Of a stretch of DNA of 64,000 bases, positions 4,051 through 15,017 are shown one piece after another. Position numbers and translations under genes: made by a program. This DNA comes from a phage, in sequence record PV357172.2; one strand, written 5' to 3'. Each line of letters starts with the position of its first letter. Position 1 is the stretch's first letter. The notes below the pieces were generated by a model. The model saw only the letters and a program-made list of their open reading frames with translations. It had not been told where the DNA came from and made no database searches.

Positions 4051-4052
4051 AA

Positions 4053-4124
4053 CGGGGTGTAGTCTAAGGGAGAGGCAGGAGTCTTCTAAATTCCTTTATG
4101 CAGGTTCGAATCCTGTCACCTCGG
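4053..4124 (+). tRNA. tRNA-Arg (anticodon TCT)
   Basis: Acceptor CGGGGTG/CACCTCG, anticodon loop CTTCTAA, T-arm GCAGG-TTCGAAT-CCTGT, encoded CCA. Confidence 0.8.
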
Positions 4125-4161
4125 CCAATTTTATTAACTGTAGCTAAAACAAAGGAAATAT

Positions 4162-5109
4162 ATGTTTAATACTAAAAATATGAAAGAACTGACTTCTGAG
4201 CAGAAAGTAATTCGTACTATTAAACGTTGGGGTATTGGTGCTGTAGTTGGTTTAGCAGGTTTAATCCTAGCTTTTAATTCATATACTGTTGTTCAAGACG
4301 GTACTGTTAAAACCCAGACTTTCCTGGGTAAAGTTGACCCTAGCCCAGTATTACCCGGCTTTCATATTGTAAATCCTTTTGCTTCTTTCGATACTTTTAG
4401 TACTAAAGATATTGCCCTAAAATTAGATAAACTTCAGGTTCCTAGCCAGGATAAGTTTAAATCCACTGTTGACCTGACTGTTATGTTGCAGTTTGATGGT
4501 TCTAAGGCACCAATTAACCGTATTAACGCAGGTACTCAGGATCAGGCGTTAGACAAGTATGTAACTGAAAAATTACTGTCTACTATTCGTGAGTTTGGTA
4601 AGTCTGTACCTAAAGCACAAGATTTGTTTGATGCTAAAATTCAGGCTCAATTGCAAACTGCAATTCAACAGGAAGTTGAAGAGTATGCACGCCCATATGG
4701 TTACACAGTTAAGCAGGTATTCCTTCAGGATATTACTTTGCCACCGGTAATCATGGAACAGGTACAGAATACCAAAGTTCGTGAAGAGCAAGTTAATGCT
4801 GCGAAAGCTGAACTGGCCCGCGTTGAACAAGAAGCGCAGCAAAAGGTTAAACAAGCAGAAGCAGACCGTGAAGCTCGCAACAACCAAGCTATTGCTAATG
4901 AACGTGACGCAGATGCTAAACTGTACGCAGCTAAGAAAGAAGCTGAAGCTAACGCCGCATTGCAACGTACCATTACTCCTGAGATGATTCGCTGGAAGCA
5001 ACTGGAAGTTGAAATGCTTCGTGCTGAAAAATACCAAGGTGGTGTACCGCAAACAGTAGTGGGAACTGGTTACGATGGCCAGATGATCATGGATATGCGT
5101 AATAAGTAA
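4162..5109 (+). CDS. SPFH/band-7 (prohibitin-like) membrane protein
   Basis: N-terminal TM segment then long Ala/Glu/Gln-rich coiled coil; overall SPFH-like architecture. Confidence 0.55.
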   Translation: MFNTKNMKELTSEQKVIRTIKRWGIGAVVGLAGLILAFNSYTVVQDGTVKTQTFLGKVDPSPVLPGFHIVNPFASFDTFSTKDIALKLDKLQVPSQDKFKSTVDLTVMLQFDGSKAPINRINAGTQDQALDKYVTEKLLSTIREFGKSVPKAQDLFDAKIQAQLQTAIQQEVEEYARPYGYTVKQVFLQDITLPPVIMEQVQNTKVREEQVNAAKAELARVEQEAQQKVKQAEADREARNNQAIANERDADAKLYAAKKEAEANAALQRTITPEMIRWKQLEVEMLRAEKYQGGVPQTVVGTGYDGQMIMDMRNK

Positions 5110-5133
5110 TATCCGCATGTAATCTCTGAAGTA

Positions 5134-5168
5134 AGCCCTGTGTTCCCTGGAGAGCGCAGGGCTTTTCT
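5134..5168 (+). terminator. rho-independent terminator
   Basis: GCCCTG...CAGGGC hairpin followed by TTTT. Confidence 0.6.
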
Positions 5169-5314
5169 GTATTTAAGGCAAAAGAAAAAGCCCATAAGTT
5201 ATTCAACTAAGGTCTTTAGTATTTAATTCTTTAGAATCATATAATATTATTGCAGCAACAACGTGCTAACCTTAAGTGCCCTGCAATTTTCCTCTAAAAA
5301 GTTAAAAAATTCGA

Positions 5315-5343
5315 TTGCTTGAATGCTAAATTCTCTGTATAAT
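5315..5343 (+). promoter_or_regulatory. sigma70-like early promoter
   Basis: TTGCTT 5315-5320, TATAAT 5338-5343. Confidence 0.6.
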
Positions 5344-5373
5344 ATATTTATAAATTTGAGAGAGGAATCAAAT

Positions 5374-6429
5374 ATGATTAAGACTGGTCTAGTAATTGGT
5401 AAGTTCGCACCATTAACGCGTGGTCATATTAACCTAATAAACACAGCAGCAACTATGTGTGAACGAGTTATTGTTGTAGTTAGTCATGATAATCGTTGGC
5501 TGGATAAGCAGAACACACGTGATCAGGAAGTATTACAGTTAAAGAATCGACTTCGTTGGTTAGAACAAACTTACGCGGATATTGAGCACATTTCGGTAGA
5601 GTACATTATTGAAGATGATATTCCTGAATATCCGAATGGTTGGCCGGAATATGCTAGAATCCTTAATGAAAATTACGGACATTTGCCTGAGATCACCGTT
5701 TTCTCTAGCGAACTAGACTATGATGCAGAATATAAGAAATATCTGCCGAAGTTTGGTCATTATATTGTAGATTCTGATCGGACTCGTGTTCCAATCTCAG
5801 CTACAATGATTCGTAATGATCTTATGAAGTATTGGGAGTTTCTTCCTAGCTTAGTTCGTAAAGATTACGTGCGTAAGGTTGTAATCATTGGGACTGAAAG
5901 CTCGGGAAAGACTACTTTAACAAAATACCTTGCGAAGCTATACAACACTTCGTGGGTAGAAGAATATGGCCGAACGTATTGTGAAGTTGATCTAGTTGGT
6001 AACGAAAATCTACTTACCAGTGAAGATTACAGTAAAATTGCGTTCAGACACAAAGAGCTAGAGTTTGAAGCAGAACGTACTGCAAATAAGATCATGTTTG
6101 TGGATACAAATGCTTTTATTACTGAGTTCTACCACAGACTTTATGAACATAGTAAGAACCCTGTGGTTACAGCAATTGCAAAAGTAGAACATTACGATTT
6201 AGTAATTGTTCTAGCGCCTACTGTCAAGTGGGTAGATGATGATTTACGTATTAACTCCGATCGTTCAATTACTTCTGAACTGTTCGAGCAGATGAAGAAA
6301 GAATTTCCAAATCAGTTCCCTGAAGGGCGTACTGTTTACATCGACTCTCCGGACTACAAAGTTCGTATGGACGAAGCAGTAAACGCAGTAGACTGGCTGA
6401 TTCATCACTTTAACGTTGGAGAGTTTTAA
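5374..6429 (+). CDS. nadR: NadR-like NMN adenylyltransferase / ribosylnicotinamide kinase
   Basis: N-terminal nucleotidyltransferase motif (GKFAPLTRGHINLI) plus C-terminal Walker A (GTESSGKTT); ATG 5374 after SD AGAGGAA. Confidence 0.7.
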   Translation: MIKTGLVIGKFAPLTRGHINLINTAATMCERVIVVVSHDNRWLDKQNTRDQEVLQLKNRLRWLEQTYADIEHISVEYIIEDDIPEYPNGWPEYARILNENYGHLPEITVFSSELDYDAEYKKYLPKFGHYIVDSDRTRVPISATMIRNDLMKYWEFLPSLVRKDYVRKVVIIGTESSGKTTLTKYLAKLYNTSWVEEYGRTYCEVDLVGNENLLTSEDYSKIAFRHKELEFEAERTANKIMFVDTNAFITEFYHRLYEHSKNPVVTAIAKVEHYDLVIVLAPTVKWVDDDLRINSDRSITSELFEQMKKEFPNQFPEGRTVYIDSPDYKVRMDEAVNAVDWLIHHFNVGEF

Positions 6430-6430
6430 T

Positions 6431-7108
6431 ATGACTAACTATCTCGTAAATGACTTTAAAAACTGGAAACCTCTGGAATATCTGTGGCTGCTCATAGCGG
6501 TTGTCTTCATTAGTTTAGCAAACTATAATGGTACAGCTCTAGATTGGGCTACTGCAATAACCAATGTGGTTTGTGTTATTCTGGTTGCAAAAGGACGTGT
6601 TTCCAACTATATTTGGGGCTTAGTGGGTGTTCTTACATATGGTATTACAGCTTTAAACGCAGATCTTTATGGTAACGCTGCACTAAACCTGCTATACTAC
6701 GTTCCTATGCAGTTTTATGGAATGTACTTATGGCATAAAAATAAACCAAGTAATCTGCCAGACGTTCCAACTAAGGTTCTGACTAAAGCTCAGGCTTTAT
6801 TAACTCTTGGGATTCTAGCAGTAGCTACTCTAGGCTATGGCAGCTTCCTCGCTACCACAGCAGATCCGTTCCCAATGCTCGATGCATTTACTGCGGTTGG
6901 TAGTGTAATTGCTATGTGGCTTATGGTCAAGCAGTATGCTGAACAATGGCTAATCTGGATTGCCATTAATATTGGTACTGTATACATTTGGTTTGTAACT
7001 GCTCAGTCTACAGGTGCTTCTTATGCAATCCTAGCAATGTGGCTGGTATTCTTTGGTAACTCTGTACTTGGAGCCTATAAAGGGTACTTTGTACGCGTTA
7101 ACAAATAA
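6431..7108 (+). CDS. pnuC: PnuC-like nicotinamide riboside transporter
   Basis: About 225-aa polytopic membrane protein immediately after the NadR-like gene, Trp-rich helices as in PnuC. Confidence 0.6.
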   Translation: MTNYLVNDFKNWKPLEYLWLLIAVVFISLANYNGTALDWATAITNVVCVILVAKGRVSNYIWGLVGVLTYGITALNADLYGNAALNLLYYVPMQFYGMYLWHKNKPSNLPDVPTKVLTKAQALLTLGILAVATLGYGSFLATTADPFPMLDAFTAVGSVIAMWLMVKQYAEQWLIWIAINIGTVYIWFVTAQSTGASYAILAMWLVFFGNSVLGAYKGYFVRVNK

Positions 7109-7115
7109 AATAGTT

Positions 7116-7138
7116 ATAGCCCTCAAAGCGAGGGCTAT
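7116..7138 (+). terminator. terminator-like hairpin
   Basis: ATAGCCCTC-AAAGC-GAGGGCTAT hairpin after the PnuC-like gene. Confidence 0.45.
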
Positions 7139-7155
7139 TATCCAGAAAATTTCAC

Positions 7156-7184
7156 TTGCTAAATGCCGAGATTTTCTGTATAAT
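7156..7184 (+). promoter_or_regulatory. sigma70-like early promoter
   Basis: TTGCTA 7156-7161, TATAAT 7179-7184. Confidence 0.6.
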
Positions 7185-7198
7185 ATATTTATAAATTC

Positions 7199-7290
7199 GG
7201 AAGATTAACCCTAATTGGTAAGGGAGCATCTTGCTAAGTTGCCAGTAGCTGTGGAAACACGGTGTATCGGTTCAAGTCCGATATCTTCCT
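7199..7290 (+). tRNA. tRNA-Ser (GCT), long variable arm
   Basis: Perfect acceptor GGAAGAT/ATCTTCC, anticodon loop TTGCTAA, T-loop TTCAAGT, encoded CCA. Confidence 0.75.
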
Positions 7291-7298
7291 CCAAATTT

Positions 7299-7373
7299 GG
7301 TTCTCAAGCTCATTTGGTATGAGCCGTCGCCTCATAAGCGAAAGGTAGGTAGGTTCGAATCCTCCGGGAGCCA
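7299..7373 (+). tRNA. tRNA-Met/fMet/Ile2 (CAT)
   Basis: D-stem GCTC/GAGC, anticodon loop CTCATAA, T-loop TTCGAAT, encoded CCA. Confidence 0.7.
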
Positions 7374-7393
7374 CCAGATAACTAGGAGACTTT

Positions 7394-7582
7394 ATGTCAC
7401 GCTTTCACGAAATTAAGCAAGAACTGGAAGAACTCGCCTGTCCTGAATGCTTTGGGACAGGTGAATGGAATGATGCTGAACCCGGGGATACGCGGTTTAA
7501 CACTTACGTTTGCACTCACTGTGAAGGTACTGGTGTAAACCCTCTTTACACTATTTCTCTTTTTGTAGGGGTTGCTAAATAA
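7394..7582 (+). CDS. small zinc-ribbon protein (CPEC...CTHCEG)
   Basis: 62-aa ORF with two CxxC pairs and AGGAG SD. Confidence 0.5.
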   Translation: MSRFHEIKQELEELACPECFGTGEWNDAEPGDTRFNTYVCTHCEGTGVNPLYTISLFVGVAK

Positions 7583-7588
7583 TGCACT

Positions 7589-7936
7589 TTGAAGATGATG
7601 AAAAAAGAAGCGTTCTACACTGTCCCAGCAATTAATCTGCTCGGTACTGTACTATTTCAGATTAAGTTCTACCTGCGAGACGACTACACTGAAGTGGTAA
7701 ACGCTATTGTACCTGAGTTCTTCGTAAATAATTTCCAAAAGGACTTTAAGTTCTTTATTGATGATGTTTACGATGGTGTGGTTGATCCGGCAGTAGCTCC
7801 AGCTATATACAATGTATTTAATTCTCTGCCAGATCTAGATTTTGATCTAGGACTTATTGAGTCTGGTGAGATTATCTGGGCACTTAATGTTCCAGTGACT
7901 GGATTCCCTGGTTGGCTGCAAGGTTACGAACTCTAA
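7589..7936 (+). CDS. hypothetical protein (115 aa)
   Basis: Track ORF; alternative start codon; no domain recognised. Confidence 0.45.
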   Translation: MKMMKKEAFYTVPAINLLGTVLFQIKFYLRDDYTEVVNAIVPEFFVNNFQKDFKFFIDDVYDGVVDPAVAPAIYNVFNSLPDLDFDLGLIESGEIIWALNVPVTGFPGWLQGYEL

Positions 7937-7944
7937 CAAAATTT

Positions 7945-8027
7945 GGATCTGTGGTGGAATTGGCAATACACACCATGCTTAAAACGTGGCGCTTAAATGA
8001 TTGAGGGTTCGAGCCCCTCCAGATCCA
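7945..8027 (+). tRNA. tRNA-Leu (TAA), long variable arm
   Basis: Acceptor GGATCTG/CAGATCC, anticodon loop CTTAAAA, T-arm GAGGG-TTCGAGC-CCCTC, encoded CCA. Confidence 0.7.
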
Positions 8028-8182
8028 CCAAATTAAGGAAGTAAAAATGAAATCTATTAAGAAAGCACTGCGTAAATTTATGTATTGTCGTTTTCATAGC
8101 ATCAAGGCTTCAACTAATGGTACTACTTACGATCGCTATGATCCTAAGTTTGGCTTACATTCTAAATAACTGGAGAAAACAA

Positions 8183-8389
8183 ATGGCTAATCCTGAAATT
8201 ACGGCACAACGCTTTATGCTGAAAGGAATTATTGCTGAAGCAGGCATGACAGAAGAAGTTGCAGATTTTCAAAAGCAATTCCTCAATATTCTCACTCAAG
8301 CCAAAGAGCTAGGAGAGAAAGAACATGGCGCGGCTATTATGGCAATCACATTGGTTGGGCTTGATCTGGCTGAAGAATCAGGAGTTTAA
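8183..8389 (+). CDS. hypothetical protein
   Basis: ATG 8183 preceded by GGAG; in frame with track ORF 8117-8389. Confidence 0.45.
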   Translation: MANPEITAQRFMLKGIIAEAGMTEEVADFQKQFLNILTQAKELGEKEHGAAIMAITLVGLDLAEESGV

Positions 8390-8419
8390 CTCCTCCAAGC
8401 AGAAATTTTAAAAATGTAC

Positions 8420-8449
8420 TTGCTTTTTACTTAAGATTTCTGCTATAAT
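8420..8449 (+). promoter_or_regulatory. sigma70-like early promoter
   Basis: TTGCTT 8420-8425, TATAAT 8444-8449. Confidence 0.55.
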
Positions 8450-8478
8450 AGTTATATAAGTTGATGAGAGGAATCAGA

Positions 8479-8754
8479 ATGTTAAAACGTTTTGCAGCAA
8501 CTGGTATTGAAAGCTCAGTATGTAAATCCTGGGGTGGTTGGGAAGGTGAGATCGAGTGGCTTTATTTCTACAATGTAGAACTTCTTCCAGAGATCAAAGC
8601 TCAATGTATTGAGGCTGGTATGGCTCCTGATGCTACGGCTGATGTTGAAATCAGCATGAATAAGCTAGAGGGTCGAGTAGTCACTGTTACTGATGAAGGT
8701 GAAGAGGTATTCGAACTTCCATTCACTTTGAAAGTCACTCCTTCATTTGATTAA
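8479..8754 (+). CDS. hypothetical protein
   Basis: ATG 8479 after conserved GATGAGAGG leader; in frame with track ORF. Confidence 0.5.
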   Translation: MLKRFAATGIESSVCKSWGGWEGEIEWLYFYNVELLPEIKAQCIEAGMAPDATADVEISMNKLEGRVVTVTDEGEEVFELPFTLKVTPSFD

Positions 8755-8785
8755 CTGATACAGCACTGAGCAAGTTCTTTAAAAT

Positions 8786-8819: not shown

Positions 8820-8889
8820 AGTTATCTAATTTGGAAACATATTTAAAAGTATTCAAATACTAGTTTAAACACTTTTAAATGTACATCGT

Positions 8890-8963
8890 TGGCAGAATGG
8901 CTATTGTAGCGGTCTGTAAATCCGTGCCCTTCGGGATTGGTGGTTCGAATCTTACACGGCCCG
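8890..8963 (+). tRNA. tRNA-like element with Tyr-type anticodon loop (CTGTAAA); possible pseudogene
   Basis: GGTTCGAATC T-loop and CCA end are present but acceptor and T-stems do not pair canonically. Confidence 0.2.
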
Positions 8964-9068
8964 CCAAATTCTGTGTAGAGTTAAGTAAACCGGTAGCCAA
9001 CCAGCTATCATTGCTGACATCGAATTCAGCCACAGATACCATTTTCATTAATAACTGAGGAAATAGAT

Positions 9069-9254: not shown

Positions 9255-9257
9255 ATT

Positions 9258-9839
9258 ATGCACGGAATATCCTTACCAATTCCAGGGTTTGAGGAGTACT
9301 TAGTAAGTTTGGATGGGTTAGTATTTAGTATCAAATCAAACAAAATACTAACCCCAATAACCAGTAATTACGGATACTTATCTATACGTCTCCATAAAAA
9401 TGGTCAACAGAGAAATACCGGTGTACATAGGATTTTAGCATGTGCATTTAAGAAATTACCAAGTCTAGACTCTGAACTAGAAGTTGACCATATTAACACA
9501 GACATTACTTATTGGGGTCTTAATAACTTACAAGTGCTCACAAAAGAGCAGCATCTAGAAAAGACTTTAAAAGATAAAGGATTTAGTAAACTAAACCATG
9601 ATAATTGTTGTAAGGATTGTGGTAAAGCTATTTCTTTAAAAGCTGAAAAATGTCAGGAGTGCTCTTCACATAAACCAAAAGATATCTCTATAACTAAAGA
9701 AATAATCGAGGTTACAGTAAGAGAGCTAGGCTGGTCAGGTGCAGGGAGAAAGTTAAGTTATTCAGATAATGGGTTGCGTAAAAGATACACTTCTTTAGGA
9801 GGCAATCCTAAAGAACTTAAAAAGTTAAAGGTACTATAG
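9258..9839 (+). CDS. HNH homing endonuclease
   Basis: LEVDHINTD...NNLQVLTKEQH HNH motif plus C-terminal Cys-rich region; stop codon overlaps the start of tRNA-Asp. Confidence 0.8.
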   Translation: MHGISLPIPGFEEYLVSLDGLVFSIKSNKILTPITSNYGYLSIRLHKNGQQRNTGVHRILACAFKKLPSLDSELEVDHINTDITYWGLNNLQVLTKEQHLEKTLKDKGFSKLNHDNCCKDCGKAISLKAEKCQECSSHKPKDISITKEIIEVTVRELGWSGAGRKLSYSDNGLRKRYTSLGGNPKELKKLKVL

Positions 9840-9901
9840 TCTAACGGTTAGGATACTCCCCTGTCACGGGAGAGGTAGGGTTTCGATTACCCTTAGTACC
9901 G
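9830..9901 (+). tRNA. tRNA-Asp (GTC)
   Basis: Perfect acceptor GGTACTA/TAGTACC, anticodon stem CTCCC/GGGAG, loop CTGTCAC, T-arm AGGGT-TTCGATT-ACCCT, CCA. Confidence 0.85.
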
Positions 9902-9910
9902 CCAAATTAT

Positions 9911-9984
9911 ACATCCATAGCTCAATTGGTTAGAGCTACCGCCTCTTAAGCGGTAGGTTCTAGGTTCAAGTCCTAGTGGGTGTA
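9911..9984 (+). tRNA. tRNA-Lys (CTT)
   Basis: D-stem GCTC/GAGC, anticodon stem ACCGC/GCGGT, loop CTCTTAA, T-arm CTAGG-TTCAAGT-CCTAG, CCA. Confidence 0.85.
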
Positions 9985-10114
9985 CCAAACATCAGAGCAG
10001 CGTGATGTACTGCAAAGACCCAAAGTCCGGGGTGGACTTCTTGATTCAAAGGAGCAGGCACTAATTATCATTCTAGCGTGGTGGAGAGGGGACACCAGCT
10101 TGCCGAGGGTAGAA

Positions 10115-10191
10115 GCTCGTTCGATTCGAGTGAAAGAATGGTTCTCGTAAATCCGCACAAGTGATAGCAGGTTCAAGTCCTGCCTAGATTG
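10115..10191 (+). other. two tRNA-like T-arm elements without canonical acceptor stems
   Basis: GCTCG-TTCGATT-CGAGT and GCAGG-TTCAAGT-CCTGC; no complementary 5' acceptor found. Confidence 0.2.
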
Positions 10192-10200
10192 ACTTATTAT

Positions 10201-10271
10201 GCGTTCGTAGTTAAAAGGTATAATTTTTGGTTGCCAACCAGAAGTTGAGGGTTCGATTCCCTCCGACCGCA
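10201..10271 (+). tRNA. tRNA-Gly (GCC)
   Basis: Anticodon loop TTGCCAA, T-arm GAGGG-TTCGATT-CCCTC, acceptor 6/7 paired, CCA. Confidence 0.75.
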
Positions 10272-10527
10272 CCAAATTTAGGTTTCTGCTTCCTAGAGAA
10301 CGGACTCCTAGATAAACAAGGCGATGAGTTTCCGGCCGGTTCTAGTCGCTGAAAATCCTCCCGACCAGGTAGGTGTAAGTAAATGAAAGTTTACTTATTG
10401 AGTAGGTTCCGATAGACCGGCGGGTCTATTCTGGCATTTAAGAGAGGTCTCGCAAACTTCTTTGTCAGCCGTGGGGTTGGTAGCCTCCAGGTGGCCTACA
10501 CAATAAGTAAATTTATTAAAAATTCAT

Positions 10528-10556
10528 TTGCTATTCTGCTTAATTCTCTGTATAAT
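10528..10556 (+). promoter_or_regulatory. sigma70-like early promoter
   Basis: TTGCTA 10528-10533, TATAAT 10551-10556. Confidence 0.6.
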
Positions 10557-10587
10557 ATATTTTATAAAGTGAGTTAACAAAAATTAA

Positions 10588-10660
10588 CAGTGCGTAGCGC
10601 AGTTGGTAGCGTGGGAGCCTTGGGTGCTTCGGGTCGCAGGTTCGAGTCCTGCCGCACTGA
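10588..10660 (+). tRNA. tRNA-Pro (TGG)
   Basis: Perfect acceptor CAGTGCG/CGCACTG, anticodon loop CTTGGGT, T-arm GCAGG-TTCGAGT-CCTGC, CCA. Confidence 0.85.
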
Positions 10661-10669
10661 CCAAACAAT

Positions 10670-10744
10670 TGCGGGTTAGATCTCTGGTAGAGATCGCTAG
10701 TCTCATAAGCTAGAAAGAGGTAGGTTCGATTCCTGCACCCGCTT
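10670..10744 (+). tRNA. tRNA with CAT anticodon (Met/fMet/Ile2)
   Basis: Anticodon stem CTAGT/GCTAG, loop CTCATAA, T-loop TTCGATT, 1:72 U-U mismatch, CCA. Confidence 0.75.
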
Positions 10745-10921
10745 CCATTTTAATAGAGGATTTCGAAATGAAAGTATTTCGATTAGTAGTAAGTGACAAA
10801 CGGTTAGGTAAGAATACATCAAAATCCTTACTTGCTCATTATGGTAAAAATTGGGATGAAGTAATGGCAGAGTTTAATACTAATCACCCTTACTTGAAAG
10901 TTCACTCTATTAAGGAAGTTT

Positions 10922-11395
10922 ATGCTTATTAACAGGGTGCTTCAAGCTCTAGATCTTCCAGAGCTCTTTACTATTACCGACCCCTTAATACATCGGTATA
11001 TGGAAAAGTATAATGAAATCTCTGGTAAAAAAGGGAAACTAAAATCCTCAGAATTTAAGTTCTGTTATAGAATGGCAGCATTAAACCTCTTAAAGTACAA
11101 GAGGGAGCATAAAATCCCTATAACAGAAGGATTTGTCTATGTAATAGGTAGTCCAGCATGGCCTGGACTATATAAGATAGGTATGACAGTAGATGTGAAT
11201 GAAAGACTGTCTAGTTATCAAACATATTCGCCTTATCGTGATTACAAGTTATACCATTTCAGATTCTCCTCGGACAAGAGAAGAACTGAAAAAGCATTAC
11301 ATAACCTTCTGAAGGACTACAAAGTATCAGGAGAATGGTTTGAAGTACCTCTGTTAGACGCCTTCAAACTATTAGTAGAAAATTTGGATTGCTAA
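10922..11395 (+). CDS. GIY-YIG-like (T5orf172-domain) homing endonuclease
   Basis: GFVYVIGS...YKIGMT...ERLSSY...EWFEV matches the T5orf172 pattern; stop overlaps tRNA-Lys start. Confidence 0.65.
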   Translation: MLINRVLQALDLPELFTITDPLIHRYMEKYNEISGKKGKLKSSEFKFCYRMAALNLLKYKREHKIPITEGFVYVIGSPAWPGLYKIGMTVDVNERLSSYQTYSPYRDYKLYHFRFSSDKRRTEKALHNLLKDYKVSGEWFEVPLLDAFKLLVENLDC

Positions 11396-11460
11396 CTCAA
11401 CTGGATAAGAGTACCGGACCTTTAATCCGTCAGTTCTGGGTTCGAATCCCAGGCAATCCA
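11386..11460 (+). tRNA. tRNA-Lys (TTT)
   Basis: Perfect acceptor GGATTGC/GCAATCC, D-stem ACTC/GAGT, loop CCTTTAA (unusual C33), T-arm CTGGG-TTCGAAT-CCCAG, CCA. Confidence 0.75.
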
Positions 11461-11481
11461 CCAATTTCAAGAAAAACTCAG

Positions 11482-11511
11482 TTGCTTGATGCTTAATTTC
11501 TTGTTATAATA
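11482..11511 (+). promoter_or_regulatory. sigma70-like early promoter
   Basis: TTGCTT 11482-11487, TATAAT 11506-11511. Confidence 0.55.
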
Positions 11512-11748
11512 TTTATATAAATTGATGAGGAGAAATCCTCATCATAGTTCACTAAGGTATTAGCTCGACCTAGGACTGGCTGCCAAAAAGCACGATCCCT
11601 ACGATTTGGGAGAAGTTCTAGATTAGTCCACTAGATTCAGCGGCAACTGAATAGTGTATCGGTTTTGCGAGATGACGCGGTTCCTTCCGCTCGAAGCGAA
11701 GGTGCTGTAGTTACGCCGAGCTAATAGCCTTAGTAAACTAAGGAATTT

Positions 11749-11819
11749 GGGGATATAGTTTAATGGTAGAACATCTGCTTTGCACGCAGAAGACGAGGGT
11801 TCAACTCCCTCTTTCTCCA
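11749..11819 (+). tRNA. tRNA-Ala (TGC)
   Basis: Anticodon stem TCTGC/GCAGA, loop TTTGCAC, T-arm GAGGG-TTCAACT-CCCTC, CCA. Confidence 0.75.
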
Positions 11820-11827
11820 CCAAATTT

Positions 11828-11909
11828 GGGGCTATGCTGGAACTGGTAGACAATACGGCCTTAGATTCCGTAGCTTAAATGCGTGGGAGTTCGAGTCTCC
11901 CTAGCCCCA
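11828..11909 (+). tRNA. tRNA-Leu (TAG), long variable arm
   Basis: Perfect acceptor GGGGCTA/TAGCCCC, anticodon TAG in the loop, T-arm GGGAG-TTCGAGT-CTCCC, CCA. Confidence 0.65.
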
Positions 11910-11928
11910 CCAACTTATAGGGTAATGT

Positions 11929-12513
11929 ATGCAGTTTGTACCAATAAAAGATGCACCAGGGTATTTAGTAAATGAAACAGGGGATGTGTTATCTACATTT
12001 ACTAATAAAATCTTATCAAGATATATAGTTGATGGGTACCCTGCTGTAAAATTACAGATAAATGGTAAGCAAACTTCGGTACTTATACACCGAATTATTT
12101 CTCATGTATTTGGGGACTTATATAATCTATTTGACCCTGAATTAGAAGTAGATCACAAGGATAGAGATAGGCTGAATCTATCTAAAGATAATCTTCAAGT
12201 TTTATCAAAAATAGAACATCAGAAGAAAACTAATAAAGATAATGGATGGTCTGATAGTAGAGTACCTTGCCCCTTATGTGGAAATCTAATGCTTCAGAGA
12301 TCAGTAACATGTACAAATTGTAAGCCAAAACCTACAGGAAAGTTAATAAAACCAGAATTGTCCTTAGAAGACATAACTGAAAAGGTTTTATTAATGGGGT
12401 GGGTTAAGGCAGCTAAAGATCTAGAAGTATCAGAGTCCACTTTACGTAGACGATATACTAAACTAACCGGATTAAGCCCGAAAGTATTAACAGAACAACG
12501 GAAAAGCAAATAG
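11929..12513 (+). CDS. HNH homing endonuclease
   Basis: HRIISHVFG...LEVDHKDRDRLNLSKDNLQVL HNH motif plus CxxC pairs; 3' end overlaps tRNA-Ser. Confidence 0.8.
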   Translation: MQFVPIKDAPGYLVNETGDVLSTFTNKILSRYIVDGYPAVKLQINGKQTSVLIHRIISHVFGDLYNLFDPELEVDHKDRDRLNLSKDNLQVLSKIEHQKKTNKDNGWSDSRVPCPLCGNLMLQRSVTCTNCKPKPTGKLIKPELSLEDITEKVLLMGWVKAAKDLEVSESTLRRRYTKLTGLSPKVLTEQRKSK

Positions 12514-12590
12514 ACTGGTGACTAAACCCGATTGGAAATCGGTTGAGTGGTAGCAATACCGCCTTATGGGTTCAACTCCCATCTTTTCCG
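12500..12590 (+). tRNA. tRNA-Ser (GGA), long variable arm
   Basis: Perfect acceptor GGAAAAG/CTTTTCC, anticodon loop TTGGAAA, T-arm ATGGG-TTCAACT-CCCAT, CCA. Confidence 0.7.
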
Positions 12591-12605
12591 CCAAACAATT
12601 TATAT

Positions 12606-12697
12606 GGTAGGTCAATCCAATGGCTGGCGCTGGACTCCGACTTGAAATCGGTTGATCGTAGTGATACGGTGTAAGGGTTCGATCCCCTTACCTACCT
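12606..12697 (+). tRNA. tRNA-Ser (TGA), long variable arm
   Basis: Perfect acceptor GGTAGGT/ACCTACC, anticodon loop CTTGAAA, T-arm AAGGG-TTCGATC-CCCTT, CCA. Confidence 0.7.
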
Positions 12698-12712
12698 CCA
12701 AATCTTGAAGTA

Positions 12713-12837
12713 TGCCGGAATCGGTAGACGGGGCTGCCTAAAAGGTTTATAGGGAACATCCACTCCCTGCAACATACCTCATAAAGCGGCTGAGATAAAT
12801 GGTCTATCTCGTGAAGGTTCAAGTCCTTCTGCTTCTT
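12713..12837 (+). other. tRNA-like element (type-II D-arm and a T-arm, no canonical acceptor stem)
   Basis: GGAATCGGTAGACGG D-arm-like segment and GAAGG-TTCAAGT-CCTTC T-arm separated by about 80 nt. Confidence 0.2.
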
Positions 12838-13066
12838 GATACATCTATGGCTCAAAGTGTAACGGTGCTATTTGATGCTCTTGGTAAGACTTCCCCGACA
12901 TGCGTTCGGGAGTAAGCTGCTAAGACTAGAGTAGAAGAGTTTCTGAGAGCCGCCACAATTGAAAATTCGTACTCGTCTTGAGCTGCGTGCAATAGGAGAT
13001 AACTTGATTAGTATTCTAGAACATGCTAATTGAGGATGGTTTCGCTAACCCTGCGAGTTTTCAATT

Positions 13067-13140
13067 GTGGCTATATCATAATTGGTTAATGATCCTGATT
13101 GTGAATCAGGCCTATGTGGATTCGAATTCCACTAGCCACC
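13067..13140 (+). tRNA. tRNA-His (GTG)
   Basis: Perfect acceptor GTGGCTA/TAGCCAC, anticodon stem CCTGA/TCAGG, loop TTGTGAA, T-arm GTGGA-TTCGAAT-TCCAC, CCA. Confidence 0.8.
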
Positions 13141-13168
13141 CCAAATTAACTTAAATAGGAAATAAAAT

Positions 13169-13369
13169 ATGGCTGATTTCTGCAAGCAATGCTCCCTTGA
13201 TATGTGGGGCAGAGATACTGGTGACTTATCTGGTCTGATTACAGAAGCCGAAGTCAAAGAAGGTTATAGTGCAGTTGTGATTTGTGAAGGCTGCGGTGTT
13301 ATCCGTGTAGACCACACCGGTAAGCGTTTGGAAGAACCAGTTCCAATTGCGCAAGTTCCTGTAGAATAA
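13169..13369 (+). CDS. small zinc-ribbon protein (66 aa)
   Basis: CKQC ... CEGCG Cys pairs. Confidence 0.5.
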   Translation: MADFCKQCSLDMWGRDTGDLSGLITEAEVKEGYSAVVICEGCGVIRVDHTGKRLEEPVPIAQVPVE

Positions 13370-13377
13370 AAAATTAT

Positions 13378-13450
13378 TGGAGTGTAGCTCAACTGGCAGA
13401 GCGACGGTTTCTGACACCGTAGGTTTCTAGTTCGATCCTAGACATTCCAG
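13378..13450 (+). tRNA. tRNA-Gln (CTG)
   Basis: D-stem GCTC/GAGC, anticodon stem ACGGT/ACCGT, loop TTCTGAC, T-arm TCTAG-TTCGATC-CTAGA, CCA. Confidence 0.85.
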
Positions 13451-13459
13451 CCAAACAAT

Positions 13460-13534
13460 TGGGGATTAGCTTAGCTTGGCCTAAAGCTTCGGCCTTTGAA
13501 GTCGAGATCATTGGTTCAAATCCAATATCCCCTG
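13460..13534 (+). tRNA. tRNA-Gln (TTG)
   Basis: Anticodon stem TCGGC/GTCGA, loop CTTTGAA, T-arm ATTGG-TTCAAAT-CCAAT, 1:72 U-U, CCA. Confidence 0.75.
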
Positions 13535-13545
13535 CCAAACAATAA

Positions 13546-13618
13546 GCGATTAAGCACACGGGTTGTGCCGCAGGCCTTCCAAGCCCCGCTGAGTAGGGTT
13601 CGATTCCCTCTAGCCGCT
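13546..13618 (+). tRNA. tRNA, anticodon uncertain (possibly Trp CCA)
   Basis: Good T-arm (TTCGATT), acceptor with one mismatch and CCA end; anticodon stem pairs poorly. Confidence 0.5.
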
Positions 13619-13638
13619 CCAACTTTAAGGAAACATTT

Positions 13639-13860
13639 ATGCACGTTTTTGAGTTTCGTGATAAAAGTAACAATAAACGAGTTATTGTTATTGGAGAAAC
13701 ATACCTAGCATACGAACAAACTGATGGCTCTGTTATCTTGAATGATGAGAAAGCAAATTTTAGCTTTTATCCAGAAGAACCTTATGAAGAGTTTCGTACT
13801 AAGTTTCTTTTACCAGACTGGCTAGCAGTAGCCGAGCAACGAGAATCCGAAGATGGCTGA
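13639..13860 (+). CDS. hypothetical protein (73 aa)
   Basis: Track ORF with AAGGAAA SD-like sequence. Confidence 0.5.
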   Translation: MHVFEFRDKSNNKRVIVIGETYLAYEQTDGSVILNDEKANFSFYPEEPYEEFRTKFLLPDWLAVAEQRESEDG

Positions 13861-14025
13861 TAACCTAAAATTAAGGGTTGACAAACAAAAGAAATACGTT
13901 GAGGTTGAATTAGGCGAAGAACGCTTAAAGCTAACTTTCGAGTTTCTTCAGCAGTTGGCTATGACAGTCATGACTGATAAGTCTCCTGTTATTGAAAAAG
14001 AAATCCCGTTGAAATAGGAAGCAAC

Positions 14026-14418
14026 ATGGAGTTTACTTGTTTAAATTGCGGAATCACAAAACCTAAAAGTAGGGGTTCCGCAGGTAAGTATTGTGGTGCT
14101 GCTTGTCAGCAGGAGTACCAGACAAAGCAAAAAGTATTAAAGTGGCTGGCAGGTGAAGAACCTGGTTATACTGGTAAAGCTGCACAATTAAAACCTTTTG
14201 TTAGGAAGTGGCTGTGGGATACTCGTGGTACTGCTTGTGAAGTATGTGGTTGGGATGGGAAACATCCAATTGACGGAGCAGTTTTAACTGAGGTAGATCA
14301 TATAGATGGAGATGCAACTAACTGTTCTCCAGAAAATCTAAAGATTCTCTGCCCTAACTGTCACTCTATGACACCTACGCATAGGGCCAGAAATAGAGTT
14401 TCAACAAGACAACGATAG
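14026..14418 (+). CDS. HNH endonuclease (zinc-binding)
   Basis: VDHIDGD...NLKILCPNCH HNH motif plus N-terminal CxxC pairs; stop TAG supplies G1 of tRNA-Thr. Confidence 0.75.
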   Translation: MEFTCLNCGITKPKSRGSAGKYCGAACQQEYQTKQKVLKWLAGEEPGYTGKAAQLKPFVRKWLWDTRGTACEVCGWDGKHPIDGAVLTEVDHIDGDATNCSPENLKILCPNCHSMTPTHRARNRVSTRQR

Positions 14419-14489
14419 CTCTTAAAGCATTGCTGGCGATGCAACGGTCTTGTAAACCGTGGAACCGGGTTCGATTCCTGGTGGGAGCA
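14418..14489 (+). tRNA. tRNA-Thr (TGT)
   Basis: Acceptor GCTCTTA/TGGGAGC, anticodon stem ACGGT/ACCGT, loop CTTGTAA, T-arm CCGGG-TTCGATT-CCTGG, CCA. Confidence 0.8.
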
Positions 14490-14507
14490 CCAAAATTAAA
14501 AAATTCA

Positions 14508-14537
14508 TTTGCCTTCTCTCTTATTTCTTGTTATAAT
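14508..14537 (+). promoter_or_regulatory. sigma70-like early promoter
   Basis: TTTGCC -35-like 14508-14513, TATAAT 14532-14537. Confidence 0.5.
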
Positions 14538-14567
14538 ATTTATATAAATTAATGAGAGGGAAACCAA

Positions 14568-14861
14568 ATGAAACGTTATCTTTCTGTCGTGTTCCAAACT
14601 GGTGGTCAACGCTACACTTATGAATTTCCTGAGTCCTGGAAAATTAAAGAAGGTGATCAAGTTGTTGTATTAACACCTCGTGAAGGCTTCAAAGTAGTAA
14701 CGGTTAAACAAGTATTTCCAAAAGATCACGAACCATCTAAGGCTATTCAGTACAAGATGATTCATGGTCTGGTACGAAAAGTACCTAGAACAGAAGTCGA
14801 AGTAGATAAAACTGGGGAAGCTAAATACCAGTATACCTCTTACTTAGATGAAATGATGTAA
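14568..14861 (+). CDS. hypothetical protein (97 aa)
   Basis: Track ORF after promoter and GAGAGGGAAACC leader. Confidence 0.5.
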   Translation: MKRYLSVVFQTGGQRYTYEFPESWKIKEGDQVVVLTPREGFKVVTVKQVFPKDHEPSKAIQYKMIHGLVRKVPRTEVEVDKTGEAKYQYTSYLDEMM

Positions 14862-14862
14862 T

Positions 14863-14935
14863 GCTCTGATAGTTCAACAGGTTAGAACAGACGACCGATA
14901 ATCGTCAAATCTTGGTTCGATCCCAAGTCGGAGTA
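14863..14935 (+). tRNA. tRNA-Ile (GAT)
   Basis: Anticodon stem GACGA/TCGTC, loop CCGATAA, T-arm CTTGG-TTCGATC-CCAAG, CCA. Confidence 0.8.
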
Positions 14936-14944
14936 CCAAATTAT

Positions 14945-15017
14945 AGTTAGTTGGCAGAGTGGTTATGCACCTCCTTCATACGGAGCGACTACAGTGGTTC
15001 AAATCCACTACTAACTA
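14945..15017 (+). tRNA. tRNA with CAT anticodon (Met/fMet/Ile2)
   Basis: Perfect acceptor AGTTAGT/ACTAACT, loop TTCATAC, T-arm AGTGG-TTCAAAT-CCACT, CCA. Confidence 0.8.

What the first reader, a model, noticed from the sequence alone, without database searches (positions are those of the whole stretch)
4053..15017. Large tRNA set with encoded CCA, three CAT-anticodon tRNAs and several 1:72 mismatches
At least 21 tRNAs are present, all with a genomically encoded CCA. Three carry CAT anticodons (7299, 10670, 14945), consistent with elongator Met, initiator and lysidine-modified Ile2. tRNA-CAT at 10670 and tRNA-Gln at 13460 have U-U at positions 1:72, and some anticodon loops have C33.
Basis: seen in the sequence. 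Interest (0 to 1): 0.4.

Follow-up and report, generated by a model that had tools for sequence, protein, structure and literature searches.

The report
T5-type phage tRNA gene cluster
This stretch is the well-known tRNA gene cluster of a T5-like phage of enterobacteria: 21 tRNA genes that top up or replace host tRNAs during infection, so it is real but ordinary.

Summary
Window 4053-15020 (+ strand) carries 21 tRNA genes. ARAGORN finds 19 at its default threshold. Ser(UGA) 12606-12700 and Gly(UCC) 13546-13621 appear at a relaxed threshold, and both are conserved in relatives. All 21 have an encoded N73-CCA.

- **CAT anticodons:** three genes, at 7299, 10670 and 14945.
- **U1xU72 mismatch:** exactly two genes, the CAT tRNA at 10670 and Gln(UUG) at 13460. 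Ile(GAU) has a G1.U72 wobble.
- **C33:** two genes, Lys(UUU) at 11386 and Ile(GAU) at 14863.

The window is a T5-like phage (Demerecviridae), about 91% identical to Salmonella phage SE24 and Escherichia phage IrmaTschudi. The cluster is syntenic with the annotated T5 tRNA region.

The T5 record labels the three CAT orthologues as follows:

| T5 label | Window gene | Identity to the T5 copy |
|---|---|---|
| tRNA-Met | 14945 | 100% |
| initiator tRNA-fMet | 10670 | 100% |
| tRNA-Ile2 | 7299 | 86% |

My own tests support the initiator reading, although only one of the three anticodon-stem G:C pairs is present. The Ile2 reading is plausible but unproven.

The cluster is already known. Minor curiosities:
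- The initiator-like family seems restricted to phages.
- C33 recurs in phage Ile(GAU) tRNAs.
- tRNA-His has no templated G-1.
- A decayed tRNA marks the place where six tRNA genes were lost.

The parts
4053..4127 (+). tRNA-Arg(UCU), reads AGA; encoded CCA
   Evidence: ARAGORN; Rfam 49.3 bits; 100% identical to T5 tRNA-Arg
7199..7293 (+). tRNA-Ser(GCU), long variable arm; CCA
   Evidence: (36.1 bits); slot of T5 tRNA-Ser3
7299..7376 (+). tRNA(CAU), probable tRNA-Ile2 (would read AUA after lysidine modification); G1-C72, U4:A69, C5:G68, A73, CCA
   Evidence: (40 bits); 86% identical to T5 tRNAI2(CAU); 100% identical in IrmaTschudi
7945..8030 (+). tRNA-Leu(UAA); CCA
   Evidence: 50.7 bits; 100% identical in many T5-like phages; absent from T5
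9830..9904 (+). tRNA-Asp(GUC); CCA
   Evidence: (63.1 bits)
9911..9987 (+). tRNA-Lys(CUU); A1-U72; CCA
   Evidence: (69.6 bits)
10201..10274 (+). tRNA-Gly(GCC); U4xC69 internal mismatch; CCA
   Evidence: (61.1 bits)
10588..10663 (+). tRNA-Pro(UGG); CCA
   Evidence: (60.8 bits)
10670..10747 (+). tRNA(CAU), initiator-type (T5 'tRNA-fMet'): U1xU72, G2:C71, C3:G70, A11:U24, U73, anticodon stem A29-U41/G30-C40/U31.G39; CCA
   Evidence: (43.6 bits); 100% identical to T5 tRNAfM; at least 99% identical in 204 phage records; family analysis
11386..11463 (+). tRNA-Lys(UUU) with C32-C33 loop (CCUUUAA); U36-C41 = UAAUCC; CCA
   Evidence: (57.5 bits)
11749..11822 (+). tRNA-Ala(UGC), G3.U70 present; CCA
   Evidence: (72.3 bits)
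11828..11912 (+). tRNA-Leu(UAG), reads CUA/CUG; CCA
   Evidence: 39.7 bits; 100% identical to T5
12500..12593 (+). tRNA-Ser(GGA); CCA
   Evidence: ARAGORN; Rfam Sec model 43.9 bits; 95% identical to T5 tRNAS2
12606..12700 (+). tRNA-Ser(UGA), found only at relaxed threshold; perfect acceptor and T arms; CCA
   Evidence: (37.6 bits to Sec model); 100% identical in 5 related loci; slot of T5 tRNAS1
13067..13143 (+). tRNA-His(GUG), C73, CCA; nucleotide -1 (13066) is T, so G-1 is not templated
   Evidence: (59.9 bits); 100% identical to T5
13378..13453 (+). tRNA-Gln(CUG), U1-A72, G73, CCA
   Evidence: (60 bits)
13460..13537 (+). tRNA-Gln(UUG), U1xU72, G2:C71, G3:C70, G73, CCA
   Evidence: (54.5 bits); 100% identical to T5 tRNAQ1, noted in the T5 record as an effective amber suppressor after anticodon change
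13546..13621 (+). tRNA-Gly(UCC), found only at relaxed threshold; 3-bp D stem, A4xC69; CCA
   Evidence: 96% identical to T5 tRNAG1; at least 95% identical in 10 loci
14418..14492 (+). tRNA-Thr(UGU); U36-C41 = UAAACC; CCA
   Evidence: (49.5 bits)
14863..14938 (+). tRNA-Ile(GAU) with C32-C33 loop (CCGAUAA), G1.U72 wobble; CCA
   Evidence: (59.7 bits)
14945..15020 (+). tRNA(CAU), elongator tRNA-Met type: A1-U72, U4:A69, A5:U68, A73, CCA
   Evidence: (51.5 bits); 100% identical to T5 tRNAM
8883..8966 (+). decayed tRNA remnant (homologue of the long-arm tRNA-Asn of IrmaTschudi): 5' acceptor strand lost, 31:39 pair broken, anticodon now GTA, CCA kept. It marks the loss of the Tyr-Glu-(Trp)-Phe-Cys-Asn block
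3478..3551 (+). tRNA-like element without CCA, inside the homologue of T5 stable RNA 'RNAX' (window about 3423-4052)
   Evidence: Rfam tRNA 35.5 bits; ARAGORN relaxed; 96% identical to T5; mapping
10066..10193 (+). homologue (89%) of T5 'RNA2', a tRNA-like stable RNA of unknown function. The relaxed ARAGORN 'Ala' call at 10067-10139 lies here and is not a tRNA gene
7156..7184 (+). T5-type early promoter (TTGCTA-17-TATAAT) just upstream of Ser(GCU). Sister copies at 3227-3255, 10528-10556 and 14509-14537
   Evidence: these coincide with homologues of T5 promoters P15b, P16-17, P13a and P11

Best explanation
This is the early-region tRNA gene cluster of a T5-like phage (Demerecviridae, close to Epseptimavirus phages). 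It holds 21 functional tRNA genes covering 13 amino acids plus an initiator. Small ORFs, homing-endonuclease genes and T5-type stable RNAs lie between them.

**Expression (inferred from T5).** The genes are transcribed from strong T5-type early promoters as multi-gene precursors. Many genes sit 5-12 nt apart. Host RNase P and 3' nucleases cut the precursors. Because CCA is templated, no CCA addition is needed.

**Role 1: supply for rare codons (shown here by codon counts).** The tRNAs read codons that this AT-rich phage uses heavily and E. coli reads poorly: AGA, AUA, CUA, ACA, UUA and GGA.

**Role 2: replacing cleaved host tRNAs (shown experimentally for T5 by others, inferred here).** The tRNAs stand in for host tRNAs that anti-phage anticodon nucleases destroy. 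Their anticodon stem-loops differ from the host's at the nuclease sites.

**The three CAU tRNAs.** They divide the AUG/AUA work as initiator (10670), elongator Met (14945) and probable lysidine-dependent Ile2 (7299).

**The odd features.** The U1xU72 ends and the C33 loops are conserved, isoacceptor-specific features, not decay.
For: **Identity of the locus.**
- Megablast of 4000-15100 hits 629 phage records, nearly all T5-like, with the best at about 91% identity.
- Gene order matches IrmaTschudi and T5, including flanking SPFH, nadR, pnuC and glycyl-radical genes.
- Nine window tRNAs are 95-100% identical to T5 tRNAs, and most of the rest are 97-100% identical to IrmaTschudi.

**Genes are real.**
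- Rfam E-values range from 7e-14 to 7e-4.
- All 21 carry CCA.
- The T5 record notes in vivo suppressor activity for several identical orthologues.

**Codon supply** (phage versus E. coli sample, per 1000 codons):

| Codon | Phage | E. coli |
|---|---|---|
| AGA | 12.8 | 0.9 |
| AUA | 15.0 | 2.9 |
| CUA | 19.0 | 3.9 |
| ACA | 14.4 | 4.5 |
| UUA | 26.9 | 10.5 |
| GGA | 14.5 | 7.2 |

Each of these has a cognate phage tRNA.

**Counter-defence.**
- T5 tRNA-Lys(UUU), Thr(UGU) and Asn(GUU) rescue infection from the PARIS nuclease AriB. AriB cuts host tRNAs at U36AAUC|A41 (PMC11464382, PMC12409363).
- The window's Thr(UGU) reads UAAACC and its Lys(UUU) reads UAAUCC at that site, against UAAUCA in E. 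coli lysT.

**The oddities look selected.**
- In an IMG/VR family picked only by anticodon-arm and T-arm sequence, 1:72 is always mismatched (UxU, CxU, UxC, CxA, AxA). Pairs 2:71 to 7:66 stay paired through compensatory changes.
- Among 472 distinct phage tRNAs, only 7 have C33. Five of these are Ile(GAU), on three different backbones.

**Promoters.** TTGCTA-17-TATAAT sites at 3227, 7156 and 10528 coincide with homologues of annotated T5 promoters.
Against: - Nothing here measures expression, processing, aminoacylation or modification.
- Across all codons, the enrichment of codons that match a phage tRNA is only a trend (Mann-Whitney p = 0.07). The E. coli reference is a sample of 22 genes.
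- The window's Lys(UUU) keeps U39 and C40 of the AriB site, and the phage has no intact tRNA-Asn, so PARIS evasion by this particular phage is uncertain.
- Ser(UGA) and Gly(UCC) fall below the default thresholds of the predictors.
- The overall count of promoter-like sites is not above shuffled sequence.
Confidence: 0.88

Rival explanations
1. The CAT tRNA at 10670 is not an initiator. It would be an elongator or decaying tRNA-Met whose end pair has simply been lost.
For: - It lacks two of the three G:C pairs (29-31:39-41) that define bacterial initiators.
- It has U12:A23 instead of G12:C23, and U73 instead of A73.
- Most deposited records call it plain tRNA-Met.
Against: - It is at least 99% identical in 204 phage records.
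- The 1:72 position stays mismatched in every divergent relative while the rest of the stem co-varies.
- G2:C71, C3:G70 and A11:U24 are kept. These are formylation and initiator marks per PMC1635315.
- From established knowledge, an unpaired 1:72 is unfavourable for EF-Tu, which argues against elongator use.
- The phage also has a separate, normally paired tRNA-Met (14945).
Confidence: 0.12
2. The CAT tRNA at 7299 is a second methionine tRNA, not a lysidine-modified tRNA-Ile2.
For: - It has U4:A69 rather than the C4:G69 that E. coli TilS needs together with C5:G68 (PMC1635315).
- ARAGORN and most records label it Met.
- Canonical Ile2-like tRNAs with C4:G69 and C5:G68 do exist in other phages (Proteus phage 1, a Vibrio phage), so the T5-type one is atypical.
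Against: - The T5 authors annotate the orthologue as Ile2.
- It carries A73, U12:A23, C29:G41, A37 and A38 (IleRS elements, recalled from Nureki et al. 1994). The tRNA at 14945 has only A73 and A37 of these.
- AUA makes up 23% of Ile codons in this phage (15 per 1000 codons, 5 times the E. coli sample). No other AUA reader is encoded.
- The phage already has both an initiator-type and an elongator-type Met tRNA.
Confidence: 0.25
3. The tRNA set exists only to match codon usage. The odd loops and ends are neutral drift with no link to host defence.
For: The largest phage/host codon ratios (AGA, AUA, CUA, ACA, UUA, GGA) all have a cognate phage tRNA.
Against: - Several encoded tRNAs read codons that are less used in the phage than in the host: GGC, CAG, AUC, AGC and GAC.
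- Published T5 experiments show rescue from PARIS and retron nucleases by specific phage tRNAs.
- C33 and 1:72 mismatches are confined to particular isoacceptors and recur on unrelated backbones.
Confidence: 0.15

Closest known systems
tRNA gene region of bacteriophage T5 (AY543070, about 28.0-41.6 kb)
   Same: - The order of shared genes is the same: Arg ... Ser(GCU)-Ile2 ... Asp ... Pro-fMet ... Lys ... Ala-Leu(UAG) ... Ser(GGA)-Ser(UGA) ... His ... Gln-Gln-Gly(UCC) ... Thr ... Ile-Met.
- The promoters, stable RNAs (RNAX, RNA2, RNAIV, RNA2H, RNA1, RNAI, RNAIII) and HNH endonuclease slots are the same.
- Arg, fMet, Leu(UAG), His, Gln(UUG) and Met are 100% identical.
   Different: - The window lacks Tyr, Glu, Trp, Phe, Cys, Asn and Val.
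- It has Leu(UAA), Lys(CUU), Gly(GCC) and an intact Gln(CUG), which T5 lacks or has as a pseudogene.
- Pro, Asp, Ala, Lys(UUU), Ile(GAU), Ser(GCU) and Ser(UGA) sit in the same slots but are only 64-74% identical to the best-matching T5 tRNA.
- T5's Lys(UUU) and Ile(GAU) have U33.
Epseptimavirus-type phages, e.g. Escherichia phage IrmaTschudi (Bas28, MZ501076) and Salmonella phage SE24
   Same: - About 91% nucleotide identity across the region.
- Most tRNAs are 97-100% identical, including the C33 Lys(UUU) and Ile(GAU), the U1xU72 fMet-type tRNA and Gln(UUG).
   Different: - IrmaTschudi has about 28 annotated tRNAs.
- The window lacks its Tyr-Glu-Phe-Cys-Asn block, where only a decayed remnant is left at 8883-8966. 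It also lacks Val, a second Ala and Arg(ACG).
- The window carries different Leu(UAA), Leu(UAG), Pro and Ser alleles.
E. coli initiator tRNAfMet (metZ/W/V)
   Same: Unpaired 1:72, G2:C71, C3:G70, G4:C69, G5:C68, G6:C67, A11:U24, CAU anticodon, loop CUCAUAA.
   Different: - UxU instead of CxA, and U73 instead of A73.
- U12:A23 instead of G12:C23.
- Anticodon stem A29-U41/G30-C40/U31.G39 instead of three G:C pairs. Position 39 is G, so the A38|C39 site cut by enteric VapC (PMC4105405) is changed.
E. coli tRNAIle2 (ileX), substrate of lysidine synthetase TilS
   Same: CAU anticodon, loop CUCAUAA, A73, C5:G68, C29:G41, U12:A23.
   Different: U4:A69 instead of C4:G69, U3.G70 and U6.G67 wobbles, A8 instead of U8, and a 6-nt variable loop. 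Overall similarity is low.

Membership tests
T5-like (Demerecviridae) early-region tRNA gene cluster | Nucleotide similarity and gene order shared with the T5 or Epseptimavirus tRNA region and its flanking genes | tested here: met
   629 phage records hit, the best at 91% identity over 83% of the query. Collinear blocks with T5 and IrmaTschudi. Flanking SPFH, NadR-like, PnuC and glycyl-radical ORFs.
T5-like (Demerecviridae) early-region tRNA gene cluster | tRNA genes orthologous to annotated T5 tRNAs | tested here: met
   Six genes are 100% identical and three more are 95-96% identical to T5 tRNAs. The others occupy the same slots.
T5-like (Demerecviridae) early-region tRNA gene cluster | Homing-endonuclease ORFs and T5 stable RNAs interspersed among the tRNAs | tested here: met
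   HNH_3, HNH, NUMOD4 and T5orf172 domains in ORFs 9258-9839, 10922-11395, 11929-12513 and 14026-14418. Homologues of RNAX, RNA2, RNAIV, RNA2H, RNA1, RNAI and RNAIII.
Bacterial initiator tRNA (tRNAfMet), for 10670-10747 | No Watson-Crick pair at 1:72 | tested here: met
   U1xU72. A mismatch is kept in every family member (UxU, CxU, UxC, CxA, AxA). The canonical bases would be C1xA72.
Bacterial initiator tRNA (tRNAfMet), for 10670-10747 | G2:C71 and C3:G70 in the acceptor stem | tested here: met
   Acceptor strands UGCGGGU/ACCCGCU. Criteria from PMC1635315.
Bacterial initiator tRNA (tRNAfMet), for 10670-10747 | A11:U24 and G12:C23 in the D stem | tested here: inconclusive
   The D stem GAUC/GAUC gives A11:U24 (met) but U12:A23 (not met). 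Divergent relatives such as the Vibrio phage copy have both.
Bacterial initiator tRNA (tRNAfMet), for 10670-10747 | Three consecutive G:C pairs 29-31:39-41 (R29 G30 G31 / Y39 C40 Y41) | tested here: not met
   The stem is A29-U41, G30-C40, U31.G39. PMC1635315 reports that 15% of bacterial initiators deviate, but they keep G31 and Y39.
Bacterial initiator tRNA (tRNAfMet), for 10670-10747 | Formylation of Met-tRNA and use at start codons | not testable with these tools
   This needs biochemical or in vivo assays.
Lysidine-dependent tRNAIle2, for 7299-7376 | CAU anticodon in a tRNA distinct from the initiator and elongator Met tRNAs of the same genome | tested here: met
   It is the third CAT tRNA and is not similar to the other two.
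Lysidine-dependent tRNAIle2, for 7299-7376 | C4:G69 and C5:G68 (positive determinants for E. coli TilS) | tested here: not met
   U4:A69 and C5:G68, so only one of the two pairs is present. Criterion from PMC1635315.
Lysidine-dependent tRNAIle2, for 7299-7376 | IleRS identity elements outside the anticodon (A73, U12:A23, C29:G41, A37, A38) | tested here: met
   All five are present, read from the structure. The list of elements is from my memory of Nureki et al. 1994 and was not checked in a paper here.
Lysidine-dependent tRNAIle2, for 7299-7376 | Lysidine at position 34 and charging with isoleucine | not testable with these tools
   This needs mass spectrometry or an aminoacylation assay.
Elongator tRNAMet, for 14945-15020 | CAU anticodon, paired 1:72, A73, and an acceptor stem of the Met type (U4:A69, A5:U68 in E. 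coli) | tested here: met
   A1-U72, U4:A69, A5:U68 and A73. It is 100% identical to T5 tRNA-Met. It deviates at 3:70, with U:A instead of the usual C:G.

The most novel reading that the evidence does not exclude
The U1xU72 CAT tRNA at 10670 may belong to a phage-restricted class of initiator tRNAs. This class keeps the acceptor-end marks needed for formylation: an unpaired 1:72, G2:C71, C3:G70 and A11:U24. It has given up the three-G:C anticodon-stem signature and has changed the A38|C39 bond that enteric VapC toxins cut. It would therefore be a nuclease-proof spare initiator.

The arm signature occurs in 59 IMG/VR contigs from at least two unrelated phage families (Demerecviridae and T4-like Schizotequatrovirus). 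It occurs in only 4 contigs among 185,579 species genomes, and at least one of those looks like phage DNA.

Related and equally untested ideas:
- C33 in phage Ile(GAU) and Lys(UUU) may block a loop-cutting nuclease.
- T5-type tRNA-His may work without a templated G-1.
Probability: 0.3. Interest if true: 0.55.

Novelty: already known. Interest (0 to 1): 0.22.

Why it matters
The cluster itself adds nothing new. T5 tRNA genes were sequenced decades ago, and every tRNA here is identical or nearly identical to copies already deposited and annotated in T5-like phages.

Its value is as context. Phage tRNA clusters are now known to counter tRNA-cleaving immune systems such as PARIS, retron Eco7 and PrrC. 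This phage is a natural variant that differs in three ways:
- It lacks Tyr, Asn and five other tRNAs.
- It carries a different Lys(UUU) allele, with C33 and only one of the two PARIS-escape substitutions of T5.
- It keeps the unusual initiator-type tRNA.

Such natural variation could help map which tRNA features defeat which nuclease.

Tried and rejected
- **Isotype labels in relatives.** I looked for labels that would separate the three CAT tRNAs. IrmaTschudi and SpoonbillGilly call all three 'tRNA-Met'. Only the T5 record and T5_ev219 say fMet.
- **van den Berg et al. 2023 (eLife).** The paper has nothing on T5, C33 or tRNA-Lys.
- **Literature searches.** Searches for C33 in phage tRNAs and for T5 tRNA-His lacking G-1 found nothing specific. 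The CdiA-CT(EC536) paper shows only that a toxin cutting C32|U33 of tRNA-Ile(GAU) exists. That is a lead, not evidence.
- **Alignment of the initiator-like family.** The MAFFT alignment (A1) shifted two sequences at the 5' end, so I did not use it for pair counting. I used ARAGORN-defined registers instead.
- **Relaxed ARAGORN candidates.** The candidate 'Ala(UGC)' at 10067-10139 is rejected as a tRNA gene. It has no CCA, AxA at 1:72 and poor stems, and it is the homologue of T5 stable RNA 'RNA2'. At an even lower threshold ARAGORN gives 36 calls, including ones inside ORFs and on the minus strand. I treated these as noise.
- **Global codon test.** It gave only a trend (p = 0.07).
- **Promoter scan.** The total count is not above shuffled sequence. 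Only the top sites that coincide with T5 promoter homologues are used.
- **PMC3088637 (Winther and Gerdes 2011).** The paper is not held. I took the VapC cleavage site from PMC4105405 instead.

Full report
**1. What is there**

ARAGORN at default settings reports 19 tRNA genes in the 64-kb window. All are on the + strand between 4053 and 15020. Rfam's tRNA model passes its gathering threshold for 18 of these and for one further element at 3479-3550. Ser(GGA) at 12500 is seen by ARAGORN and, below threshold, by the related Sec model.

Both end in CCA and both are conserved in related phages. Ser(UGA) is 100% identical in five fetched loci. Gly(UCC) is at least 95% identical in ten loci and 96% identical to T5 tRNA-Gly1.

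A feature table built from the ARAGORN structures shows:
- All 21 genes have N73-CCA in the DNA.
- The CAT anticodons are at 7299, 10670 and 14945.
- U1xU72 occurs only in the CAT tRNA at 10670 and in Gln(UUG) at 13460.
- Ile(GAU) at 14863 has a G1.U72 wobble.
- C33 (with C32) occurs only in Lys(UUU) at 11386 and Ile(GAU) at 14863.

'Several' 1:72 mismatches means two.

**2. Where it comes from**

The region matches 629 phage records, almost all T5-like phages of Salmonella, Escherichia and Klebsiella. The best hits are Salmonella phage SE24, E. coli phage Shin27 and Escherichia phage IrmaTschudi, at about 91% identity. The rest of the window also matches T5-like phages at about 92%.

The annotated region of IrmaTschudi and of T5 itself (AY543070) is collinear with the window. 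The shared features are:
- the flanking SPFH, NadR-like, PnuC and glycyl-radical genes;
- homing-endonuclease ORFs that run into the 5' ends of tRNA genes;
- T5-type early promoters, with TTGCTA-17-TATAAT at 3227, 7156 and 10528 and TTGCCT-17-TATAAT at 14509;
- homologues of the T5 stable RNAs RNAX, RNA2, RNAIV, RNA2H, RNA1, RNAI and RNAIII.

Six tRNAs are 100% identical to T5's: Arg, the fMet type, Leu(UAG), His, Gln(UUG) and Met. Others in the same slots are only 64-74% identical to T5 but 97-100% identical to IrmaTschudi.

**3. The three CAT tRNAs**

The T5 record labels the orthologues tRNA-Met (window 14945), 'initiator tRNA fMet' (window 10670) and tRNA-Ile2(CAU) (window 7299). The PARIS paper also calls the T5 gene between Pro and Lys tRNAfMet (PMC11464382). 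I tested these labels against E. coli metT, metZ and ileX, fetched from MG1655, and against the criteria of Silva et al. 2006 (PMC1635315).

*10670 (initiator type).*
- It has an unpaired 1:72, G2:C71, C3:G70 and A11:U24. Its acceptor pairs 2-6 are identical to E. coli tRNAfMet.
- It has U12:A23 and U73, and only G30:C40 of the three anticodon-stem G:C pairs.

*14945 (elongator Met type).*
- It has a paired A1-U72 and A73.
- It has U4:A69 and A5:U68, as in E. coli elongator tRNAMet.

*7299 (probable Ile2).*
- It has A73, U12:A23, C29:G41, A37 and A38, which are IleRS elements (from memory). It has C5:G68 but U4:A69.
- AUA is 15 per 1000 codons in the window's ORFs, against 2.9 in an E. coli sample. 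No other AUA reader is encoded.
- Ile2 is therefore the best reading but is not proven.

**4. Are the odd features noise?**

No, on three lines of evidence.

*Conservation of the 10670 tRNA.* It is at least 99% identical in 204 phage records. Recognisable copies also exist in Proteus phage 1 (Novosibvirus) and in a T4-like Vibrio phage.

*Behaviour of 1:72 in a wider family.* I scanned IMG/VR with a pattern taken only from the anticodon arm and the T arm. This gave 59 contigs. Among their distinct CCA-bearing tRNAs, 1:72 is UxU, CxU, UxC, CxA or AxA and is never a pair. Pairs 2:71 to 7:66 stay paired through double changes, for example G5:C68 to A5:U68. The same pattern hits only four contigs among 185,579 species genomes. 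One of those is a 4.9-kb contig with 23 tRNAs, which looks like phage DNA.

*Distribution across isoacceptors.* Among 472 distinct tRNAs from all fetched phage loci:
- C33 occurs 7 times. Five are Ile(GAU) on three different backbones, one is Lys(UUU) and one is Asn(GUU).
- True 1:72 mismatches are almost confined to CAT tRNAs and Gln(UUG) (5 of 15).
- The loci were chosen for having the initiator-like tRNA, so the CAT enrichment is by construction. The Gln and Ile results are not.

For Gln, a weak or absent 1:72 pair with G73, G2:C71 and G3:C70 fits what GlnRS is known to want (established knowledge). The T5 record notes that the identical T5 tRNA becomes an effective amber suppressor after an anticodon change.

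**5. How it most likely works**

*Shown here.* These are real, conserved tRNA genes with templated CCA. They sit behind T5-type promoters. The codons most over-used relative to E. coli (AGA 12-fold, AUA 5-fold, CUA 4.7-fold, ACA 3-fold, UUA 2.5-fold, GGA 2-fold) each have a cognate phage tRNA.

*Shown by others for T5.* Phage tRNA-Lys(UUU), Thr(UGU) and Asn(GUU) resist the PARIS nuclease AriB and restore infection. AriB cuts host tRNAs at U36AAUC|A41 (PMC11464382, PMC12409363). T5 tRNA-Tyr counters a retron toxin (cited).

*Inferred here.*
- The window's Thr(UGU) reads UAAACC and its Lys(UUU) reads UAAUCC at that site, so both differ from the host sequence UAAUCA.
- The Lys allele keeps U39, and the phage has lost Asn and Tyr. 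Its resistance profile may therefore differ from T5's.
- The initiator-type tRNA has G39 where enteric VapC cuts host tRNAfMet at A38|C39 (PMC4105405). It may be a nuclease-resistant spare initiator. This is a hypothesis only.

**6. Comparison and novelty**

The cluster is a member of the T5-type tRNA region by every test I could run. Relative to T5, it differs as follows:
- It lacks Tyr, Glu, Trp, Phe, Cys, Asn and Val.
- It has Leu(UAA), Lys(CUU), Gly(GCC) and an intact Gln(CUG).
- It carries divergent alleles in several slots.

All of its tRNAs are already present, mostly annotated, in deposited genomes. I rate it already known and of low interest. The initiator-like family, the C33 loops and tRNA-His are worth a note but are not new sequence.

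Noticed in passing
window 13066-13143: The tRNA-His(GUG) gene has T, not G, at position -1 while keeping C73, so the G-1 that bacterial HisRS normally relies on is not templated. The same ATT|GTGGCTA junction occurs in all 20 copies in the fetched T5-like loci, whereas several other phage His tRNAs do have G at -1.
   Followed up: partly
window 8883-8966: This is a decayed tRNA. It is the homologue of the 86-nt, long-variable-arm tRNA-Asn(GUU) of IrmaTschudi. Its 5' acceptor strand is destroyed, the 31:39 pair is broken and the anticodon has changed to GTA, but the T arm, 3' strand and CCA are intact. It sits exactly where T5 and IrmaTschudi carry the Tyr-Glu-(Trp)-Phe-Cys-Asn block, which is missing here (about 1.3-1.5 kb).
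   Followed up: yes
window 3423-4052 (tRNA-like part 3478-3551): This is the homologue of the 719-nt T5 stable RNA 'RNAX' of unknown function. It contains a tRNA-like element that passes Rfam's tRNA threshold (35.5 bits) but has no CCA, has A at position 33 and has a mismatched acceptor stem. It is 96% identical to T5.
   Followed up: partly
window 10066-10193, about 10400-10502, about 11555-11730, 12704-13064: These are homologues of the other T5 stable RNAs of unknown function, at 89-94% identity: RNA2 (tRNA-like), RNAIV, RNA2H, and RNA1/RNAI/RNAIII. They lie between the tRNA genes. Relaxed ARAGORN picks up tRNA-like folds inside RNA2 and RNA1.
   Followed up: partly
window 4053-15026 (3' trailers of all 21 tRNAs): In 19 of 21 genes the base after CCA is A, and 14 of 21 read CCAAA. 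Eight gene pairs are separated by only 5-12 nt. This suggests a common 3' processing signal in dimeric precursors.
   Followed up: no
window 9258-9839, 10922-11395, 11929-12513, 14026-14418: Homing-endonuclease-type ORFs (NUMOD4; T5orf172/MUG113; HNH_3; HNH) each end within or exactly at the first bases of the next tRNA gene: Asp 9830, Lys 11386, Ser 12500 and Thr 14418.
   Followed up: partly
window 7199-14938 versus L002 (T5): Evolution here looks cassette-like. Pro, Asp, Ala, Lys(UUU), Ile(GAU), Ser(GCU) and Ser(UGA) occupy the same slots as in T5 but are only 64-74% identical to the best-matching T5 tRNA. Neighbouring genes (fMet, Leu(UAG), His, Gln(UUG), Met, Arg) are 100% identical.
   Followed up: partly
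L001 10123-10208 (IrmaTschudi); several IMG/VR loci: Some T5-like phages carry a tRNA-Asn(GUU) with a long, type-II-like variable arm (83-88 nt). That shape is normally limited to Leu, Ser and Tyr tRNAs in bacteria.
   Followed up: no
L070 (MAG contig JBOFFJ010000068.1, 4926 bases): This contig is binned as Phocaeicola but carries 23 tRNA genes in 4.9 kb, including a CUA-anticodon (amber-reading) tRNA and a CxA initiator-like tRNA of the phage family. It is probably phage DNA in a bacterial bin.
   Followed up: no
window 2775-3218 and 1253-2074: Just upstream of the cluster is a weak YqeY-like ORF (25.4 bits, below the Pfam cut-off; labelled 'tRNA amidotransferase' in one relative). There is also an HNH_3 endonuclease fused to a cREC_REC (cyclic-phosphate processing receiver) domain.
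   Followed up: no
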